Below, piece after piece: positions 7,391 to 21,446 of a stretch of DNA of 64,000 nucleotides. Numbering within the stretch: position 1 is the stretch's first letter; every line of letters starts with the position of its first letter. The stretch is taken from IMG/VR virus record IMGVR_UViG_3300044765_000092, positions 158,679 through 222,678 of that record; one strand, 5' to 3'. A program made the translations under genes and the position numbers. The notes below the pieces were generated by a model, which had not been told where the DNA came from, did not search any database, and was given only the letters and a program-made list of their open reading frames with translations. The stretch comes from a virus. Taxonomy: Duplodnaviria > Heunggongvirae > Uroviricota > Caudoviricetes.

Positions 7391-7466
7391 TGGTGGAAAG
7401 TAGTGGGATCGAACCACTGACCACCTCCTTATGAAGGAGGCGCTCTACCGACTGAGCTAACTTTCC
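7391..7466 (-). tRNA. tRNA with CAT anticodon (Met or lysidine-Ile)
   Basis: Hand-folded cloverleaf: GGAAAGT/ACTTTCC acceptor, D-arm GCTC-AGTCGGTA-GAGC, loop TTCATAA, T-arm TTCGATC, CCA encoded. Confidence 0.85.
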
Positions 7467-7470
7467 ACTG

Positions 7471-7546
7471 TGGTGGATCGTGACGGGCTCGAACCGCCGA
7501 CCTACGCCTTGTAAGGGCGCCGCTCTACCAACTGAGCTAACAATCC
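7471..7546 (-). tRNA. tRNA-Val (TAC)
   Basis: Acceptor GGATTGT/ACGATCC, anticodon loop CTTACAA, T-loop TTCGAGC, CCA encoded. Confidence 0.85.
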
Positions 7547-11982: not shown

Positions 11983-13269
11983 TTAGTTTCCCTTGACGCA
12001 GAGCACGGCCTTGAGCGTGTGGACCACTTCGACCAGATCTGCCTGATTGGCCATCACCTGATCGATGTCCTTGTACGCCGATGGGATTTCGTCGAGCACC
12101 GATTCATCCTTGCGGCATTCGACACCTTGGGTCTGGGCCACGAGGTCGTCGACAGTGAACAGGCGCTTGGCCTCTTTCCGTCCGTGACGTCGGCCAGCTC
12201 CATGCGAACAACTGCAATACGACTCCGTATTGCCTTTGCCACGCACGATGTAAGACCGCTGGCCCATGGAACCCGGAATGATCCCCAGGTCGCCGGTGCG
12301 AGCACGGATCGCACCCTTGCGCGTCACCCACACGTTCTGGCCGAAGTGGCTCTCCTGCTCCACGTAGTTGTGGTGGCAGTTGATGGCTTCTTCGGTAGTC
12401 TGGAGATCTGGAAATGTACGCTTGAGCGCCGACAGCACGCGACGCATCATAAGATGCCGGTTGATCCAAGCGTAGTTTTGTGCCCAGGTCACGGCCGTCG
12501 TGTATTCCTTGAATTCCGGCGTGCCTTCCGGAAAGTACGCGAGGTCCTTGTCCGGCAGGTTGATGAACCATTTGGCAGCCAACGTCCGTGCCCGATCGAT
12601 GAACGACGTGCCGATCTTGTTGCCGATGCCACGCGAACCTGAGTGGAGCATCACCCATACGTTATGATTTTCGTCCAGGCACAGCTCGATGAAATGGTTG
12701 CCAGAACCCAGAGTCCCGAGTTGAGCCCAGGCATTGTCCACAGTCGTGTCTCCGACCACTGTCCCGATAAAGCCAAGATCGTCGGTCAGAATACGATTAA
12801 ACTCTCGCCGGGCGTCGACGACAGCTTCCTTGTTCTCGACGATCTCCTGTTCGCGCCGATGTGCACCACCAGGACCCAACGGTATGTCACGCTCGATCTG
12901 GTGGCGAATCGCGGTCAAGCTGTCCGGCAGCTGATCGGCCCGTAGATTGGTGCGAACCGCGTTCATCCCGCAGCCGATATCGACACCGACGGCCGCCGGT
13001 ATGATGGCCTTGACCGTGGGCACAACCGATCCGACGGTTGCACCGATCCCCAGGTGGACGTCAGGCATGAGCGCTACACCATTCGGATGAATGAACGGAA
13101 GCCGGGCGATGTTCTTGGCCTGTTGAAGAGCAGCGTCTTCGATGTCGAGGCCTTTGACCACGCGCTCGATCTCCGCGTCGAGTTCGTGGTTGATGTCCGT
13201 GACCACTTTGGTCGTTTCATTGACCCACGCCTTGATCGGCCGCGCGCCATGTTCGTGAATCACCTTCAT
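11983..13269 (-). CDS. rtcB: RtcB RNA 3'-phosphate/2',3'-cyclic-phosphate ligase
   Basis: MPDVHLGIGATVGSVVPT...AIIPAAVGVDIGCGMNAVRT...GTGNHFIE...HSGSRGIGN...INCHHNY...SCSHGAGR are near-identical to the E. coli RtcB motifs. Confidence 0.9.
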   Translation of the reverse strand: MKVIHEHGARPIKAWVNETTKVVTDINHELDAEIERVVKGLDIEDAALQQAKNIARLPFIHPNGVALMPDVHLGIGATVGSVVPTVKAIIPAAVGVDIGCGMNAVRTNLRADQLPDSLTAIRHQIERDIPLGPGGAHRREQEIVENKEAVVDARREFNRILTDDLGFIGTVVGDTTVDNAWAQLGTLGSGNHFIELCLDENHNVWVMLHSGSRGIGNKIGTSFIDRARTLAAKWFINLPDKDLAYFPEGTPEFKEYTTAVTWAQNYAWINRHLMMRRVLSALKRTFPDLQTTEEAINCHHNYVEQESHFGQNVWVTRKGAIRARTGDLGIIPGSMGQRSYIVRGKGNTESYCSCSHGAGRRHGRKEAKRLFTVDDLVAQTQGVECRKDESVLDEIPSAYKDIDQVMANQADLVEVVHTLKAVLCVKGN

Positions 13270-15300: not shown

Positions 15301-15390
15301 TTTGGCGGAGAGACTGGGAGTCGAACCCAGTGACCACGTTACCGCAGTCTACGGATTAGCAATCCGCTGCCTTACCATCCAGCCCTCTCT
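15301..15390 (-). tRNA. tRNA-Ser (GCT), long variable arm
   Basis: Acceptor GGAGAGA/TCTCTCC, anticodon loop TTGCTAA, 19-nt variable arm, T-loop TTCGACT, CCA encoded. Confidence 0.8.
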
Positions 15391-15396
15391 CCGTTG

Positions 15397-15472
15397 AGTG
15401 GTGCCGCCACGAGGAATCGAACCCCGGACCTACTGCTTACAAGGCAGTTGCTCTACCGACTGAGCTATGACG
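15397..15472 (-). tRNA. tRNA-Thr (TGT)
   Basis: Acceptor GCCGTCA/TGGCGGC, D-arm GCTC-AGTCGGTA-GAGC, anticodon loop CTTGTAA, CCA encoded. Confidence 0.85.
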
Positions 15473-15618: not shown

Positions 15619-16206
15619 TCACTCACCGTGACTTTGAAGTGGCGGTGGATCATAATCCGAATCAGCCCATCCGTCTTCGACGTCCTTGACTTCATCGTCT
15701 GATGGCATCGGCTTTGGACACGGCTGCGAGGCCGCACGTAGAGCCTTGACTTCCTGAGCCAGGATATACATGGCGATGGTACCAAGCGAGAAGCAGTCAC
15801 GCACACCTTGGGTGTTGCTCGTCCACTCAGCTATCCTCTCCAGCGCCCAATCCACTGTGTATTCGTTTTCCGGTGCAGATGGGTGTTTCTTCTGTTGCAG
15901 TTGCGCCAGCGAAATGACACTCAGCTGATCGAAGAGCCGTGTGTTCTTACGCGAAAGCTCTTCTAGCTGACCCTGAAGGGTTCTGATCGTACATGCTGCG
16001 CATGGTTGCCCTTGCATCACAGCCTTGTGGTCCTTGCACAAGTTGTTTGCCAGGGAATTGGCCATCAATTGGCTTAGATACTGCAAATGAATCCGGTCAT
16101 CGGCATGAGTGTTCATCAGGTCGTTGATGAACTTATCAACCGCATCCGCGTCGTATACTCTAGCCCCATCTACGAACGATTGCTGAAAACGTCTACTCAG
16201 GTCCAT
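15619..16206 (-). CDS. hypothetical protein
   Basis: 195-aa ORF. Confidence 0.55.
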   Translation of the reverse strand: MDLSRRFQQSFVDGARVYDADAVDKFINDLMNTHADDRIHLQYLSQLMANSLANNLCKDHKAVMQGQPCAACTIRTLQGQLEELSRKNTRLFDQLSVISLAQLQQKKHPSAPENEYTVDWALERIAEWTSNTQGVRDCFSLGTIAMYILAQEVKALRAASQPCPKPMPSDDEVKDVEDGWADSDYDPPPLQSHGE

Positions 16207-16829
16207 TGGTTTGCTAAATATTTGCGGAGCTGGCTCTTGGCCTTGAGATCTGCACGGAGCATGCGTCGTGCCTCGGCTACTACAGCGAGGTTGAACTTGG
16301 CGTCAGCGACGGCCGTGTGCTGTTGTCCTGGGTGTTTGACATCCACACCCAGGAACTTTCTTAGAGTAGACACATCTCGTACGATCTTGTAATTCCAAGG
16401 TGCTTCTAGTCCACAGGACTCAAACAACGAGCCAAGTCGGGCCAGATCGAAGTCAGGATGATTACACCACAGTTCTTCAGCTTTGCTGAAGGCCTGAACG
16501 AGCGAATAATGGAGTTCTTCGACAGTTGAGGTGCCAGACGCGTAACCTAAGAATCGTTTGTTCCCGTGAGTACGTATCTGGAAGTCCAGCGTATTCTTGG
16601 TGTAAGAGCGGCCGAGCGCCAACTGCTCGGCTACCGACATGTAGTGCGTTTCCTCAAAGTCGATGCCGACGCTGAAGTCATCCGGGCTGATGTACTGACC
16701 GTATACACCCACTTCGTGGATAATGCAGTCGTACCTAAGAGAAAGGGTCTCGATATCGAGACCCACGATCTTGATTTCTTCCATGTTCTTGGACGTTGAG
16801 TGGAGCGGGAGTGCCGAGTCAAACGGCAC
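16197..16829 (-). CDS. DEDDh-family 3'-5' exonuclease (RNase T / DnaQ-like)
   Basis: Exo I IVGLDIET, Exo II NHPDFDLARL, Exo III HTAVADA. The start may be the internal MEEIKIV at 16784. Confidence 0.65.
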   Translation of the reverse strand: MPFDSALPLHSTSKNMEEIKIVGLDIETLSLRYDCIIHEVGVYGQYISPDDFSVGIDFEETHYMSVAEQLALGRSYTKNTLDFQIRTHGNKRFLGYASGTSTVEELHYSLVQAFSKAEELWCNHPDFDLARLGSLFESCGLEAPWNYKIVRDVSTLRKFLGVDVKHPGQQHTAVADAKFNLAVVAEARRMLRADLKAKSQLRKYLANQWT

Positions 16830-16902: not shown

Positions 16903-16990
16903 GGCCACGGCCGGGACTTGAACCCGGATTTTCGTCCCAAGGCTGTGCCCGGGGTCGACGTCCTATCCCTTAGACGACCACGACCTTTGT
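16903..16990 (-). ncRNA. tRNA-like elements that do not fold into one cloverleaf: a 5'-half-like piece and a T-arm piece
   Basis: 5'-half-like piece (gene sense): GGTCGTG-GT-CGTC-TAAGGGATAG-GACG. T-arm piece: CCGGG-TTCAAGT-CCCGG-CCGTGGC. The acceptor strands do not pair with each other. Confidence 0.3.
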
Positions 16991-17121
16991 TGATGCCATC
17001 GGCTTGCTTGAACACACAGGCTATGCGCTCAAGAAAGCCCCCGAGTTGGTCGTATCCAGTCCTCGTCGGGAGCATCTGCTCTAAATCTACACTGCCGTTT
17101 TAACAACGATCACGAATAAAA

Positions 17122-17214
17122 TGGCGCGCTCTACCGCTGAGCTACCCGCCCTTAGAATGCACAACGAAATGCACTGTGGAGGGCGGGACAGGATTTGAAC
17201 CTGTGGCCTAGCCA
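17122..17214 (-). tRNA. candidate circularly permuted tRNA gene
   Basis: Gene sense 17214->17177: TGGCT-AGGCC-ACAGG-TTCAAAT-CCTGT-CCCGCCC-T-CCA. Gene sense 17151->17122: GGGCGGG-TA-GCTC-AGCGGTA-GAGC-G-CGCCA. Acceptor strands pair 7/7 and anticodon-stem strands pair 4/5. The two halves are joined 3'-to-5' by a 25-nt linker. Confidence 0.45.
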
Positions 17215-17304
17215 TTTAGAGTATGGGTCGGAACTGTCAGAATTGAGAGCAGTCTTTGACAACGTATATCGGCAAAACTACAAGGAGCAACATCAGAGCT
17301 TTCA

Positions 17305-17398
17305 TCGGAATCGCTTCCGAGGCCATATCCAATTTGGCTTCCGTCGTGTGCATAACTCGTGCAGAACTATGCACACGACGGGCAGGACTCGAACCTGC
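17305..17398 (-). ncRNA. second permuted-tRNA-like element: T-arm and 3' acceptor strand, then a 26-nt TGCA-repeat linker, then the 5' acceptor strand and a D-arm-like hairpin
   Basis: GCAGG-TTCGAGT-CCTGC then CCGTCGT-G; linker TGCAtagttcTGCAcgagttaTGCA; then C-ACGACGG-AA-GCC-AAATTGGATAT-GGC. Acceptor pairs 7/7 and extends to an 11-bp helix. The anticodon region is non-canonical. Confidence 0.3.
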
Positions 17399-17448
17399 AA
17401 GCTCATATCACTACAACGATCACGGATAGCCGATAACTTTGTCGATGA

Positions 17449-17510: not shown

Positions 17511-18296
17511 TCAGCCTCGCACATTGGTCACGGTGCCGAACTGTTCCATGATCAGGTCGGCGATAGCGTTGCCGATCTTGGAGTCGATGGCCTCGATGTC
17601 GTTGGCGCGATTGCGTGCCTGATGGCAGGCCACGATCATCTCGTCCAGCAGCTCCAGAACCTTGGCCTTCTCGGCGGCCGAAACGGCGCCAGACCAGATC
17701 TTCGTGGTGAAGGTGCCGACCACCACATCCTTGCTGGCTTCCTTGACCTGCGCCGGATGCTTGTCGGTCGCCGGAGCCAAGACCACCGGAGTCATGACCT
17801 TCTCGGTCTTGCTCACATGGGTCTCGTCGGTGACCCACGCACCTTCGATGTTGTTGGAGTCCGGTTGCCACGACCTGGAGGCATCGAGCGTCGGCATAGT
17901 GGACAGCAACGCCCTGAGCTTGCCAAGGCGATTCTCCAGGCCCATCAGCTCGTCGACCGGGACACTGGTCGCCACAGTGTTGCCGCGTACCACCAGATCG
18001 GCCTTGGCGTTCTGGTTGCTGGCGTTCTTGCTGGCCATCACGTTCTCGGCCTTGGCCCAGAACTGCAGAAAGTAGTCGACGGTCAGCGGCACAGTGGTGC
18101 TCAGCTCTTTCTTGACCATCGCAGCCTTTTCCAGAGAATCGTTCTCCGGGCTCTCGGCCAGCATCTTGAGCGTCTTGGTCTCACCGCGGAAGTAGCTCTC
18201 CGCTTTGGAGAACTTGGTCCGGGTGTCGTCGGCCATCTGATTGGCGGTAGCAACCGCAGTCTTTTCAGCGGCCAGGAGTTCGTAGAGCTTTCCCAT
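17511..18296 (-). CDS. hypothetical protein
   Basis: ORF 17511..18443. The N-terminal 49 aa are Arg-rich junk. The probable start MGKLYELL is at 18294-18296. Confidence 0.55.
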   Translation of the reverse strand: MGKLYELLAAEKTAVATANQMADDTRTKFSKAESYFRGETKTLKMLAESPENDSLEKAAMVKKELSTTVPLTVDYFLQFWAKAENVMASKNASNQNAKADLVVRGNTVATSVPVDELMGLENRLGKLRALLSTMPTLDASRSWQPDSNNIEGAWVTDETHVSKTEKVMTPVVLAPATDKHPAQVKEASKDVVVGTFTTKIWSGAVSAAEKAKVLELLDEMIVACHQARNRANDIEAIDSKIGNAIADLIMEQFGTVTNVRG

Positions 18297-19658: not shown

Positions 19659-21446
19659 TTAGTCCCAACGGTCGATCTTGATGCGGCGCTTGACCATCGA
19701 GCCGTCGTCGATGATAACGACCATCGGATGCGGCGATGGACCGTCGGAGAACATAAAGCCGCAGGCTGTGGCTTCAGCTGCACCGGTCGGAGACTTGGAG
19801 TTCGAGTGCGCCTCGATGGTCGAGCGTACTTCGTGCAACTCGGCGTGGAGGAAGTCCGGGAACAGTCCGAGACCCGTCTGACCACGTTCGGCCTGACGAT
19901 CGTACATACCGTCGAGGAAGAACGTCACCGACTTCTGATGTTGTGGGTACTCGTTCAGGTCGTCCCACATGTGAGGCGCGTAGGCAACGCCTGTCACATC
20001 GACCCAGCCTGGGCGGAGGTTCCAGATGTCAGGGGTTGACCCCTCGACATACACGTACCAAGACACCGGATTGCGGCACTCCGGCCGATCCCATTGGATA
20101 ATCGGTGGTGCGTCAGGATACACGGCAGTCATGAACGCAGTAAACGGCTGCCGGTTGTACGTGATTTCGACAGCGATTCGCTTGGCCTGCGGCAGAACCT
20201 GCGCCTGGAACCGCGCCCAGGTCATGTTCACCGTAGGCAAAAGCTCGGCAGTCTTTGGCTCGTTCTTCTGCTTGGACTTCAGGTGGCCGAACACACCGCC
20301 TTGGTACTCCGATTCCGGTTCCGGAATCGTAGGTGACCACAACATCTGTTGGATGTCTTCCAGACGTGCGAACCGCCGTTCGAGCGACGGTGCAAGGCCG
20401 AGCTTGGCGATCAACTCCTCAGCTCGCTTGATGTTGCCGTCAGTAGGCGCAGCCTGCGGCCGCTTGTACTTATCGGGAGCCACCTTTTGTTCGAATGACG
20501 CCTTGACCTGTGCGATTGGCACCCCGCTTTCCAGATCGGCGAGCAGTGAGCCAACGAGCGACGCTCGTGGATGGCAGAAACCTTCCGGGGCCGATGCCAC
20601 GGCTCGCCACAGGATGTTCCGGCGTTCACGCTGGGACTTCACTTGGTCCAACGTATACCGCAGGTCTGCCAGGAAGTTGATCGGGCCCGTCACCTTCTCG
20701 TTGCCACGGAGCACATCGCTTTCGATGATCGTCTTAGCCTTTTGGAGAAGTCCGGCGTCGAACTCAGACAGAGCCCGGCTCATCGTCTGGTAGCGGTGCT
20801 TGATGTTGGCGGCGGCCTGGAACGGCGTCTTGGTTTTCGACGAGAACACGAACCGATAGTGTGGCTTGACCGCAAAGTGCGTCCACACACCGGTCTTCGC
20901 CGTACCCCACATCTTGTGGTCGGTCTTGAACACGTCGCTGATTTCGCACTTCGGGATCAGGCGTTCGAACGCTGCGGCCACCGGCTTGTAGTGATCAGGC
21001 GCGTCGTACTCAGACCACAGAGCCGACTTCAGCTGACCGTTTGGCAACACGATCGCCAGTGATCCATAGCTGTTGATGAACTTGCGGCACTCGCTGCACG
21101 TATGGTACTGACGCCACTCGATCGGAAACGTCGACAGGTAGTAGTCGTAGAGAGTAGGCGCACCCTGCACACCGTCGGCGGTCAATCCGCGGGGGTCGGT
21201 CATACCTCCGGGCCGAACACCCATCTGATGGAGGATGGGGCCGACGTTGGCGACAAACAGATTGTCCTGCGTTGCGGTCGTCGTGTCGAATCGGCGTTGG
21301 AGCCGGAGCATGTACTCGTTGAATTCGGCTTGACGCTCGGCATTTGGTGCCGAGGTATGGACGTGAGCAGCCGTAACTGATGCTGCTGCTGCGGCGGCAG
21401 AGATGGTCGAAGCCTTGGTGTTTGTACTGCTAGCAGTTCTGGACAT
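19659..21446 (-). CDS. hypothetical protein (595 aa)
   Basis: Long ORF. The internal 255-aa and 163-aa plus-strand ORFs are antisense artefacts. Confidence 0.6.
   Translation of the reverse strand: MSRTASSTNTKASTISAAAAAASVTAAHVHTSAPNAERQAEFNEYMLRLQRRFDTTTATQDNLFVANVGPILHQMGVRPGGMTDPRGLTADGVQGAPTLYDYYLSTFPIEWRQYHTCSECRKFINSYGSLAIVLPNGQLKSALWSEYDAPDHYKPVAAAFERLIPKCEISDVFKTDHKMWGTAKTGVWTHFAVKPHYRFVFSSKTKTPFQAAANIKHRYQTMSRALSEFDAGLLQKAKTIIESDVLRGNEKVTGPINFLADLRYTLDQVKSQRERRNILWRAVASAPEGFCHPRASLVGSLLADLESGVPIAQVKASFEQKVAPDKYKRPQAAPTDGNIKRAEELIAKLGLAPSLERRFARLEDIQQMLWSPTIPEPESEYQGGVFGHLKSKQKNEPKTAELLPTVNMTWARFQAQVLPQAKRIAVEITYNRQPFTAFMTAVYPDAPPIIQWDRPECRNPVSWYVYVEGSTPDIWNLRPGWVDVTGVAYAPHMWDDLNEYPQHQKSVTFFLDGMYDRQAERGQTGLGLFPDFLHAELHEVRSTIEAHSNSKSPTGAAEATACGFMFSDGPSPHPMVVIIDDGSMVKRRIKIDRWD

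What the first reader, a model, noticed from the sequence alone, without database searches (positions are those of the whole stretch)
17122..17214. Apparent circularly permuted tRNA gene: its 3' half is encoded upstream of its own 5' half
Reading the minus strand 5'->3', coordinates 17214->17177 spell the anticodon-stem 3' strand TGGCT, variable loop AGGCC, T-arm ACAGG-TTCAAAT-CCTGT, acceptor 3' strand CCCGCCC, discriminator T and an encoded CCA.

A 25-nt linker follows (17176->17152), carrying a small AGTGCA...TGCATT hairpin.

Coordinates 17151->17122 then spell the acceptor 5' strand GGGCGGG, TA, a canonical D-arm GCTC-AGCGGTA-GAGC, G, and the anticodon-stem 5' strand CGCCA.

The two acceptor strands are perfectly complementary (7/7). 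The anticodon-stem strands pair 4/5. Every arm has a canonical length and T/D-loop signature. Yet the halves are in the reverse order of a normal gene and are joined 3'-end to 5'-end. This is the arrangement known from the permuted tRNA genes of the red alga Cyanidioschyzon merolae. There the primary transcript is processed through a circular intermediate. I am not aware of it in phages.

The six neighbouring canonical tRNAs in this window fold normally, so the odd order is not a strand mistake.

Extra observations:
- The CTCTAAA immediately 5' of the 3' half is complementary to a TTTAGAG about 35 nt 3' of the 5' half. A leader/trailer helix could therefore bring the anticodon-loop ends together.
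- An anticodon loop assembled from ...TT(TT) + (CT)CTAAA would carry CUA or UUA, which are nonsense-suppressor anticodons. This depends entirely on the unknown junction and is speculation.

Alternative: these could be decayed remnants of two tandem identical tRNA genes that each lost their outer half.
Basis: partly seen in the sequence, partly recalled or inferred. Interest (0 to 1): 0.85.

Follow-up and report, generated by a model that had tools for sequence, protein, structure and literature searches.

The report
Permuted tRNA-mimic RNA, not a tRNA
The apparent "inside-out" tRNA gene is real and conserved, but it is most likely a Y-RNA-like tRNA mimic with no anticodon, one of two tandem RNAs that accompany a protein of unknown function (DUF7873) in hundreds of phage and bacterial genomes that show no Ro protein nearby.

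Summary
On the minus strand, 17217-17119 encodes stem strand, variable loop, T-arm, acceptor 3' strand, U-CCA, a 25-nt linker, acceptor 5' strand, U8, D-arm and the complementary stem strand. A second permuted unit lies just upstream (17412-17286).

This is neither chance nor tRNA debris. DUF7873, the gene directly upstream, is followed on the same strand by one or two such units in 75 of 80 viral loci and 77 of 80 bacterial loci. The acceptor, T, D and outer stems covary strongly. The tertiary tRNA signature (U8, A14, G18G19, 15:48 Levitt pair) is conserved.

A model built only from bacterial units finds the window unit at E = 6.5e-20. The layout is that of YrlA, the bacterial Y RNA that "resembles a circularly permuted tRNA" and is already known in Ro-encoding mycobacteriophages.

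It differs in three ways. No Ro60 gene is found in the window, in the related loci or in phage phiRSL1. No Ro-binding motif is seen. DUF7873 is the only constant partner.

Nothing supports maturation into a decoding tRNA. U33 and R37 are not conserved, and the stem runs on for 6-9 bp.

Verdict: a new, Ro-independent variant of YrlA-type tRNA mimics. Its function is unknown, and an RNA-protein complex with DUF7873 is inferred.

The parts
17119..17217 (-). Unit A (the finding): the core of a permuted tRNA-mimic RNA. In 5'->3' order it reads: outer-stem strand AAATGGC (17217-17211); variable loop (17210-17205); T-arm (17204-17188); acceptor 3' strand (17187-17181); U73-CCA (17180-17177); 25-nt linker with a small hairpin (17176-17152); acceptor 5' strand (17151-17145); U8 A9 (17144-17143); D-arm (17142-17128); G26 and C (17127-17126); outer-stem strand GCCATTT (17125-17119).
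   Evidence: Sequence. Rfam YrlA full-length match at 17103-17231, 35.3 bits, E = 6e-6. Model R1 91 bits, though this unit is in its seed. Bacteria-only model R2 64 bits, E = 6.5e-20.
17286..17412 (-). Unit B: a second permuted tRNA-mimic RNA in tandem. It reads: outer-stem strand (17412-17399); T-arm GCAGG-TTCGAGT-CCTGC (17398-17382); acceptor 3' strand CCGTCGT (17381-17375); capping hairpin that extends the acceptor helix to 18 bp (17374-17348); acceptor 5' strand ACGACGG (17347-17341); class-II-type D-arm (17338-17322); short hairpin in the anticodon-arm position (17320-17305); outer-stem strand (17301-17286).
   Evidence: Sequence. MFE fold with z = -3.9 and 0 of 200 shuffles as stable. 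Rfam YrlA full-length match at 17289-17427, 33.6 bits, E = 1.9e-5. R1 30.3 bits, E = 8e-8. The same two-unit order occurs in phiRSL1 and most related loci.
17511..18296 (-). DUF7873 gene (261 aa), directly upstream of the two RNAs on the same strand. It is the only constant genomic partner of the RNAs.
   Evidence: Pfam PF25283, E = 1e-66. Identical 261-aa protein P0001. Gene call in L084. The RNA units follow this gene in 75 of 80 viral and 77 of 80 bacterial loci. No other neighbour is conserved.
17079..17086 (-). ATTTAGAG, complementary to CTCTAAAT at 17221-17214. It overlaps the 7-bp outer stem by 4 nt on the 5' side.
   Evidence: Sequence. It is used in the MFE fold. phiRSL1 has a similar CUCUAA...UUAGA. 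There is no covariation, so the status is uncertain.
17103..17114 (-). CGTGATCGTTGT, a 12-mer 3' of unit A that is repeated exactly 5' of unit B (17424-17413). Related (A/T)TCGT motifs flank the units in many related phage loci.
   Evidence: The motif is not enriched window-wide (27 matches against 19 expected), but two of the four exact copies flank the units. Function unknown.
16904..16984 (-). A possible third tRNA-like element, in normal order. It has acceptor GTCGTGG/CCGTGGC (three G.U pairs), a Glu-type D-arm GTCT-AAGGGATA-GGAC, an oversized irregular 'anticodon' arm, and T-arm CCGGG-TTCAAGT-CCCGG.
   Evidence: Sequence. Only a weak mascRNA-like match at 24 bits, E = 0.02. ARAGORN and Rfam tRNA do not call it. 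Tentative.

Best explanation
Unit A and its upstream twin, unit B, are small structured non-coding RNAs that mimic the tRNA L-shape but carry no anticodon.

Layout: the strand order is that of a circularly permuted tRNA. The RNA's ends emerge where the anticodon arm would be and pair into a closing stem. The acceptor helix is capped by a linker. This is the architecture of YrlA-type bacterial Y RNAs.

Family: the two RNAs belong to a widespread, unannotated module made of the DUF7873 gene followed by one or two such RNAs. The module occurs in phiRSL1-like jumbo phages, many other viral contigs, and chromosomes of Actinomycetes, Cyanobacteria, Myxobacteria and Planctomycetes. It occurs without a Ro60/Rsr gene nearby.

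Shown:
- The anatomy of both units.
- Covariation of all four helices and of the 15:48 tertiary pair.
- Linkage to DUF7873.
- Absence of Ro60.
- Absence of an anticodon-loop signature.

Inferred:
(i) The RNAs are probably co-transcribed with, or made just downstream of, DUF7873, and act with it as a ribonucleoprotein, analogous to Ro60 with Y RNA. The tRNA-like head would recruit a tRNA-binding factor.
(ii) Unit A has a 7-bp acceptor stem, G+1, U8 and an encoded U73-CCA followed by a linker. It is therefore likely cut by RNase P at 17152/17151 and trimmed to CCA. That would give a two-piece tRNA-like RNA with a free acceptor end, as shown experimentally for Mycobacterium smegmatis YrlA.
For: Anatomy and Rfam:
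- Anatomy at exact coordinates.
- Two tandem full-length YrlA matches at E = 6e-6 and 2e-5. These score the same as the bona fide Ro-linked YrlA of phage Rizal on that model (36.1 bits).

Linkage to DUF7873:
- phiRSL1 and a metagenomic phage show the same DUF7873-then-RNA synteny.
- A strict pattern scan finds units downstream of DUF7873 on the same strand in 75 of 80 viral loci and 77 of 80 bacterial loci.
- Covariance models find them with E down to 1e-32.
- A bacteria-only model hits the window unit at E = 6.5e-20.
- DUF7873 is the only conserved neighbour. The next most frequent family is in 8 of 79 viral loci, and none stands out in bacteria.

Covariation:
- In 84 non-seed units the acceptor is 97% paired, the T stem 99.5%, the D stem 93% and the outer stem 85%, with 5-6 pair types per position.
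- The covariation score is 0.95 against 0.21 for shuffles, with 0 of 500 shuffles as high, and 0.12-0.16 for slid controls.
- An outer stem of at least 5 bp at canonical geometry is found in 67% of units against 8% of mismatched-flank controls.

Tertiary signature, using positions not in any filter:
- The 15:48 pair is G:C or A:U in 55 of 61 and 23 of 27 viral units, and in 72 of 74 and 51 of 55 bacterial units.
- U8, A14, GG and A58 are each at 92-98%.

Precedent: YrlA is described as a permuted-tRNA-like RNA, and the M. smegmatis YrlA is cleaved by RNase P and carries CCA (PMC4201824; bioRxiv 10.1101/312249).

No Ro60:
- None in the window or in any of the 165 loci.
- No Ralstonia phage appears among 358 Ro-positive phage records.
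Against: - There is no expression data, so ends, processing and stability are unknown.
- Nothing ties DUF7873 physically to the RNA. Its predicted fold matches nothing informative. Adjacency could instead reflect a cis role for the RNA in the DUF7873 mRNA.
- Rfam's YrlA gathering score (69 bits) is not reached.
- The outer stem of unit A has competing registers (7-bp stem against the 8-bp CTCTAAAT/ATTTAGAG helix), and its MFE z-score is only -1.8.
- Encoded CCA is present in only 54 of 85 viral and 36 of 129 bacterial units. RNase P/CCA processing therefore cannot be a general feature of the family.
Confidence: 0.75

Rival explanations
1. A true circularly permuted tRNA gene. The flanks would be cut, the ends ligated (for example by the phage RtcB) to create an anticodon loop, and the acceptor linker removed by RNase P and 3' trimming. 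The product would be a functional, possibly suppressor, tRNA.
For: - The half order is permuted, the arms have canonical lengths, and there is a 7-bp acceptor stem with an encoded U73-CCA.
- An RtcB ligase gene lies about 4 kb downstream on the same strand.
- Many phage units keep N73-CCA and a U at position -1.
Against: - Positions that would become the anticodon loop are not conserved. Would-be U33 is U in 24 of 54 units and would-be position 37 is a purine in about half. The stem commonly runs 6-9 bp and the flanks pair further out.
- RtcB is not linked to the module anywhere else. In phiRSL1 it is about 150 kb away, and it is absent within 3 kb in all viral and bacterial loci.
- Bacterial homologues cap the acceptor with 6-9 nt loops, mostly without CCA.
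- No splicing-endonuclease-like gene or conserved bulge-helix-bulge was seen.
- Unit B and its relatives carry a tetraloop hairpin where the anticodon arm would be.
Confidence: 0.05
2. A cis-acting 3' element of the DUF7873 mRNA. The tRNA-like fold would serve as a processing or stabilising signal, as mascRNA does at the MALAT1 3' end, rather than as a trans-acting RNA or RNP partner.
For: - The units always sit immediately 3' of DUF7873 on the same strand, with short gaps of about 40-100 nt.
- No sigma-70-like promoter is found in the gap in the window.
- tRNA-like 3' elements processed by RNase P are an established mechanism (cited in bioRxiv 10.1101/312249).
Against: - Two different, separately conserved tRNA-like RNAs, each with full tertiary signatures, are more than a processing signal needs.
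- In the permuted layout RNase P would cut inside the element, not upstream of it.
- This rival is not exclusive of the best explanation.
Confidence: 0.15
3. Decayed remnants of tandem tRNA genes, or a false 'dimeric tRNA' match made of the T-arm of one tRNA and the D-arm of the next.
For: Junctions of ordinary tandem tRNAs do score with the same models, for example window 7429-7514 at 52 and 48 bits. Chen et al. warned of this artefact.
Against: - In the units the acceptor strands flanking the linker pair with each other 7/7 and covary: 97% paired against 76% in junction hits.
- The outer flanks also pair.
- The units are conserved at one genomic position from phages to Streptomyces and Nostoc.
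Confidence: 0.01
4. A two-piece (permuted) tmRNA-like gene.
For: A partial match to the betaproteobacterial two-piece tmRNA model covers T-arm, acceptor, CCA, loop and acceptor (26.9 bits, model positions 86-150 of 331).
Against: - ARAGORN, which detects permuted tmRNAs, finds none.
- The match covers only the tRNA-like junction.
- The unit has a canonical 4-bp D-arm, which tmRNA lacks.
- No tag reading frame or pseudoknots were detected.
Confidence: 0.02

Closest known systems
YrlA (Y RNA-like A; Rfam RF02553), the tRNA-mimicking Y RNA bound by bacterial Ro60/Rsr, including the YrlAs of Ro-encoding mycobacteriophages
   Same: - The strand order is the same: closing stem, variable loop, T-arm, capped acceptor-like stem, U-A, D-arm, closing stem.
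- The conserved tertiary positions are the same, and so is the G15:C48 / A15:U48 covariation (PMC4201824).
- Tandem pairs of RNAs occur in both (YrlA/YrlB).
- Units with a 7-bp acceptor stem and CCA parallel the M. smegmatis YrlA, which is cleaved by RNase P.
- Rfam scores are equal to that of a genuine phage YrlA.
- My models cross-detect the Rizal YrlA.
   Different: - No Ro60/TROVE gene within the 64-kb window, in any of 165 related loci, or in phiRSL1.
- The GNCGAA(N)G motif is not enriched and is absent from both window units.
- The constant neighbour is DUF7873, not rsr.
- The first unit of the pair has a class-II-type D-arm.
Circularly permuted tRNA genes of Cyanidioschyzon merolae and some other algae
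   Same: The 3' half is encoded upstream of the 5' half, and the acceptor ends are joined by a short intervening sequence that RNase P and 3' processing could open.
   Different: Those genes yield decoding tRNAs through a bulge-helix-bulge cut, ligation and a circular intermediate (my own knowledge of Soma et al. 2007). Here there is no conserved anticodon-loop sequence, no BHB, no splicing endonuclease, and the 'anticodon stem' simply continues as a closing helix.
Two-piece (permuted) tmRNA of alpha- and betaproteobacteria and cyanobacteria
   Same: The gene order is permuted, with T-arm, acceptor 3' strand and CCA upstream of the acceptor 5' strand. Maturation into two base-paired pieces is the expected outcome for the units that encode CCA.
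   Different: There is no tag ORF and there are no pseudoknots. A full D-arm is present. ARAGORN is negative.
mascRNA / MALAT1-type tRNA-like 3' elements and viral 3' tRNA-like structures
   Same: These are tRNA mimics without decoding function, recognised by tRNA-processing enzymes and located at the 3' end of a longer transcript.
   Different: Those are in normal strand order and are eukaryotic or from RNA viruses. Here the layout is permuted, the RNAs are tandem, and they are linked to one specific protein family.

Membership tests
YrlA / bacterial Y RNA | tRNA-like module in the order T-arm, capped acceptor-like stem, D-arm, with the RNA ends in a closing stem | tested here: met
   Conserved with covariation in more than 200 related units.
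YrlA / bacterial Y RNA | Conserved tRNA tertiary positions, including 15:48 Levitt-pair covariation | tested here: met
   G:C or A:U in 201 of 217 units. U8, A14, GG and A58 each at 92-98%.
YrlA / bacterial Y RNA | Encoded within about 4 kb of a Ro60/Rsr (TROVE) gene on the same strand | tested here: not met
   No TROVE domain in the window's large ORFs. tblastn with a Pfam-validated Ro60 finds nothing in the window or in 165 loci. No Ralstonia phage appears among 358 Ro-positive phage records. The rest of this phage's roughly 238-kb genome was not available.
YrlA / bacterial Y RNA | Ro60-binding helix with a GNCGAA(N)G motif on the 5' strand | tested here: inconclusive
   The motif is absent from both window units and not enriched in the family (3.4% against 5.3% background in viral units, 12.4% against 7.1% in bacterial units). 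The strict motif is also missing from the Rizal positive control, which has GCCGAG, so the test is weak.
YrlA / bacterial Y RNA | Reaches the Rfam RF02553 gathering score (69 bits) | tested here: not met
   35.3 and 33.6 bits. The genuine Ro-linked Rizal YrlA scores only 36.1 bits, so this criterion does not discriminate phage YrlAs.
YrlA / bacterial Y RNA | Physically bound by Ro60 | not testable with these tools
   Needs immunoprecipitation.
Circularly permuted tRNA gene (decoding tRNA) | 3' half upstream of 5' half, with acceptor termini linked by an intervening sequence | tested here: met
Circularly permuted tRNA gene (decoding tRNA) | Flanks can be joined into a 7-nt anticodon loop with conserved U33 and purine 37 | tested here: not met
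   Would-be U33 is U in 24 of 54 units, would-be position 37 is a purine in about half, and stems are often 6-9 bp.
Circularly permuted tRNA gene (decoding tRNA) | Bulge-helix-bulge at the leader/trailer junction, plus a splicing endonuclease and a ligase | tested here: inconclusive
   No conserved BHB was seen among the flanks. No endonuclease was recognised among neighbouring genes. RtcB is present in the window but not linked to the module elsewhere. No dedicated BHB search tool was run.
Circularly permuted tRNA gene (decoding tRNA) | Circular intermediate and a mature tRNA of about 76 nt | not testable with these tools
   Needs circular RT-PCR or small-RNA-seq.
Two-piece tmRNA | Tag reading frame, pseudoknots and a reduced D-arm | tested here: not met
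   ARAGORN finds none. The Rfam match is limited to 65 of 331 model positions. A canonical D-arm is present.

The most novel reading that the evidence does not exclude
DUF7873 and its one or two downstream tRNA-mimic RNAs form a previously unrecognised ribonucleoprotein system. It would be a Ro-independent counterpart of Ro60 with Y RNA, spread across jumbo phages and several bacterial phyla. In the phage versions the RNA would be opened by RNase P into a two-piece, CCA-ended and possibly aminoacylatable tRNA-like molecule used outside ribosomal decoding.
Probability: 0.35. Interest if true: 0.85.

Novelty: new variant of a known kind. Interest (0 to 1): 0.7.

Why it matters
- Y-RNA-type tRNA mimics have been understood only as partners of Ro60. 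Here the same RNA architecture is under strong selection in hundreds of phage and bacterial genomes, with a different and completely uncharacterised protein as its only constant neighbour.
- This gives DUF7873 (PF25283) its first functional lead.
- It adds two unannotated RNA genes to the model jumbo phage phiRSL1, a cultivable system in which they can be tested.
- It suggests that tRNA-shaped RNAs are a more general adaptor module than the Ro system alone implies.
- There is also a practical point. tRNA finders miss these RNAs, and Rfam's YrlA threshold excludes them, as it excludes bona fide phage YrlAs.

Tried and rejected
- A DNA-level search of GenBank phages with the 721-nt gap found no match.
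- A search for Ro60/TROVE found none in the window, the loci or phiRSL1.
- The idea that the GATCGTTGT motif is a phage promoter is rejected, because it is not enriched window-wide. No sigma-70-like promoter is found in the gap. The terminator-like hairpin at 16764-16745 lies inside the exonuclease gene.
- RtcB as a conserved partner is rejected: it is linked only in this phage.
- The 595-aa DUF8224 protein as a Ro analogue is rejected: it is not conserved next to the module.
- Supplementary tables of Chen et al. 2014 and the 2020 Annual Review were not available.
- Literature searches for permuted tRNAs in phages, DUF7873 and tRNA-like decoys found no prior description.
Full report
**1. The observation**

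In order:

- a stem strand;
- a 5-6 nt variable loop;
- the T-arm ACAGG-TTCAAAT-CCTGT;
- the acceptor 3' strand CCCGCCC;
- U and CCA;
- a 25-nt linker with a small hairpin;
- the acceptor 5' strand GGGCGGG;
- UA;
- the D-arm GCTC-AGCGGTA-GAGC;
- G;
- the complementary stem strand.

The acceptor pairs 7/7. The 'anticodon-stem' pairing is in fact 7 bp, AAATGGC with GCCATTT, after one C.U mismatch. ARAGORN finds the six ordinary tRNAs and nothing at this site. Rfam at gathering thresholds finds only those six tRNAs.

**2. A second unit and a first identification**

About 100 nt upstream there is a second unit with the same permuted order. It has T-arm GCAGG-TTCGAGT-CCTGC and acceptor strands CCGTCGT and ACGACGG. 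The acceptor helix is extended to 18 bp by a capping hairpin. A class-II-type D-arm follows. The unit folds cleanly, with z = -3.9.

A permissive Rfam scan of the 721-nt gap gives two end-to-end matches to YrlA ('Y RNA-like'). They score 35.3 and 33.6 bits, with E = 6e-6 and 2e-5. Both are below the 69-bit gathering score.

YrlA is the bacterial Y RNA whose effector module mimics tRNA. Its published description is T-arm, closed 'acceptor' stem-loop and D-arm, with the RNA ends in a long stem. [quoted passage not shown] The M. smegmatis YrlA has a 7-bp acceptor stem. It is cut by RNase P and receives CCA in vivo. YrlAs were reported in 22 Ro-encoding phages (PMC4201824; bioRxiv 10.1101/312249).

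**3. Genomic context**

The window comes from a myovirus related to Ralstonia jumbo phage phiRSL1 (tail sheath gene; RtcB relatives). The two RNAs lie in a 726-nt non-coding gap. On one side is a DUF7873 gene (17511-18296, 261 aa). On the other is an Rv2179c-like 3'-5' exoribonuclease gene (16197-16784). An RtcB ligase gene lies about 4 kb further on the same strand.

No Ro60/TROVE gene is present:

- None is found among the window's large ORFs.
With tblastn it finds nothing in the window or in the related loci.
- Among 358 Ro-positive phage records there is no Ralstonia phage, although phiRSL1 is in that collection twice.

**4. Related loci**

DUF7873 homologues were used to fetch loci. In phiRSL1, ORF270 is followed by two unannotated permuted units in the same order.

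A strict pattern scan was run over the loci. It required:

- a 5-bp T-stem;
- a TTCRANN loop;
- a 7-nt strand;
- a linker;
- a perfectly pairing 7-nt strand;
- 2 nt;
- a D-arm.

It finds one or two units just downstream of DUF7873, on the same strand, in 75 of 80 viral loci.

DUF7873 is also widespread in bacterial chromosomes, with at least 579 hits. They include Streptomyces, Actinomadura, Actinoplanes, Nocardia, Nostoc/Anabaena, Sorangium, Planctomycetes and Chloroflexi. There, 77 of 80 loci carry units, and 43 carry two. The order is constant: first a unit whose D-arm has a 3-bp stem and an 11-nt loop, then one with a canonical D-arm.

No other protein family is conserved nearby. The best is found in 8 of 79 viral loci, and none stands out in bacteria. 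RtcB is linked only in this phage. The module is therefore DUF7873 plus the RNAs.

**5. Structure support**

A covariance model built from 14 class-I-type units (R1) was used to realign all hits. In 84 non-seed units downstream of DUF7873, with 5-6 pair types at every position:

| Helix | Cells paired |
|---|---|
| Acceptor | 97% |
| T stem | 99.5% |
| D stem | 93% |
| Outer stem | 85% |

Junctions of ordinary tandem tRNAs that the model also hits show 76% for the acceptor and 72% for the outer stem.

On a MAFFT alignment not fitted to any structure, all 12 T-stem and acceptor pairs show changes on both sides. The covariation score is 0.95, against 0.21 for shuffles (0 of 500 as high) and 0.12-0.16 for slid controls. 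Pairing was part of my selection filter here. The weight of this result therefore lies in the diversity of pair types and in the locus-based sampling.

The outer stem was not part of any filter. It is at least 5 bp at canonical geometry in 67% of units, against 8% of mismatched-flank controls.

The tertiary positions were also not part of any filter, and they are conserved:

- The 15:48 pair is G:C or A:U in 201 of 217 units, and the two forms covary.
- U8, A14, G18G19 and A58 are each at 92-98%.

A second model built only from 25 bacterial units (R2) gives these scores:

| Target | Score |
|---|---|
| Window unit A | 64 bits (E = 6.5e-20) |
| phiRSL1 unit 2 | 54 bits |
| Genuine Ro-linked YrlA of Mycobacterium phage Rizal | 48 bits |

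**6. Is it a real permuted tRNA gene?**

Several points argue against it:

- Taking the first 5 bp of the outer stem as the anticodon stem, the next positions show no tRNA signature. Would-be U33 is U in 24 of 54 units, and would-be position 37 is a purine in about half.
- The stem is 6-9 bp in most units, and the flanks pair further out. The mean is 26.7 flank-to-flank pairs, against 16.0 in controls.
- Unit B and its closest relatives carry a short capped hairpin in the anticodon-arm position. The window's has a GCGA tetraloop and one relative's has UUCG.
- Bacterial units cap the acceptor with a 6-9 nt loop, and most have no CCA.
- RtcB is not a conserved partner.

I therefore rate maturation into a decoding or suppressor tRNA as unlikely. 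Sequence alone cannot exclude it.

**7. Is it a YrlA?**

It works like one and looks like one. On Rfam's own model it scores the same as the accepted phage YrlA of Rizal (36.1 bits, and a partial match). Missing the gathering score is therefore not informative.

It fails the feature that defines a Y RNA, which is linkage to Ro60. The putative Ro-binding motif GNCGAA(N)G is absent from both window units and is not enriched in the family. That test is weak, because the strict motif is also absent from the Rizal control.

I file it as a new, Ro-independent variant of the YrlA-type tRNA mimic.

**8. Mechanism**

Shown:
- A conserved L-shaped tRNA mimic without an anticodon.
- Tandem organisation of the two units.
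- Linkage to DUF7873.

Inferred:
- The RNAs are made from, or just behind, the DUF7873 transcript.
- They act with that protein as an RNP. The tRNA-like head would offer a docking surface for tRNA-binding enzymes, as proposed for YrlA.
- Unit A has a 7-bp stem, G+1, U8 and U73-CCA followed by a linker. It is a plausible RNase P substrate, with the predicted cut at 17152/17151. Trimming to CCA would leave a two-piece RNA with a free acceptor end.

Encoded N-CCA occurs in 54 of 85 phage units but only 36 of 129 bacterial units. This processing, if real, would be a phage-enriched elaboration.

DUF7873 itself gave no functional clue. The AF2 model has pLDDT 84 and shows a helical bundle plus a long beta-hairpin. 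There is no significant PDB or BFVD match, no defence-system match, and only a sub-threshold HK97-capsid hit.

**9. Literature**

I found no description of DUF7873, of Ro-less YrlA-like RNAs, or of permuted tRNA genes in bacteriophages. The jumbo-phage survey by Iyer et al. mentions a tRNA-like partner RNA only together with ROT/TROVE proteins (PMC7824862). The phiRSL1 record does not annotate the units.

**10. Verdict**

The element is a genuine, strongly conserved tRNA mimic with a permuted layout. It belongs to a widespread, unannotated DUF7873-linked module. Novelty: new variant of a known kind. Interest: 0.7.

Noticed in passing
window 16904-16984 (-): A third tRNA-like element, in normal strand order. 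It has a weak acceptor with three G.U pairs, a Glu-type D-arm, a good T-arm, and an oversized irregular arm in place of the anticodon arm. tRNA finders do not call it; the only match is mascRNA-like at 24 bits.
   Followed up: partly
L001 5608-5731 (phiRSL1, NC_010811 about 188,801-188,924): An unannotated tRNA-like gene with a 62-nt insertion in the anticodon loop (Rfam tRNA 41 bits). It lies between ORF269 and ORF268, just downstream of the two permuted units. It may be a counterpart of the window's third element.
   Followed up: no
window 17413-17424 and 17103-17114 (-); flanks of units in L004-L042: The exact 12-mer CGTGATCGTTGT sits 5' of unit B and 3' of unit A. Related (T)TATCGT(T/A) and CGTATTAYC motifs recur on the 3' side of units in many related phage loci. 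They could be a protein-binding site, a processing site or a promoter-like signal.
   Followed up: partly
L085 3685-3777 (Mycobacterium phage Rizal): The genuine Ro-linked phage YrlA scores only 36.1 bits, as a partial match, against Rfam RF02553, whose gathering score is 69. The curated threshold therefore misses phage YrlAs.
   Followed up: yes
window 7429-7514, 15372-15442 (-): Junctions between adjacent ordinary tRNA genes (Val/Met and Thr/Ser) score up to 52 bits with the permuted-unit models. This is the 'dimeric tRNA' false positive. It can be told apart by mismatches in the acceptor helix.
   Followed up: yes
window 19659-21446 (-): A 595-aa protein of family DUF8224 (phrog_1735, unknown function) lies two genes upstream of DUF7873. 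It is not conserved next to the module elsewhere.
   Followed up: partly
window 16197-16784 and 11983-13269 (-): An Rv2179c-like 3'-5' exoribonuclease gene lies directly downstream of the RNAs, and an RtcB RNA ligase gene lies 4 kb further on the same strand, among tRNA genes. This RNA-repair-like neighbourhood is specific to this phage.
   Followed up: partly
L001 8072-8143: ARAGORN reports a 'tRNA-???' with a two-base anticodon between tRNA-Pro and tRNA-Gly in phiRSL1.
   Followed up: no
[not shown]
   Followed up: partly
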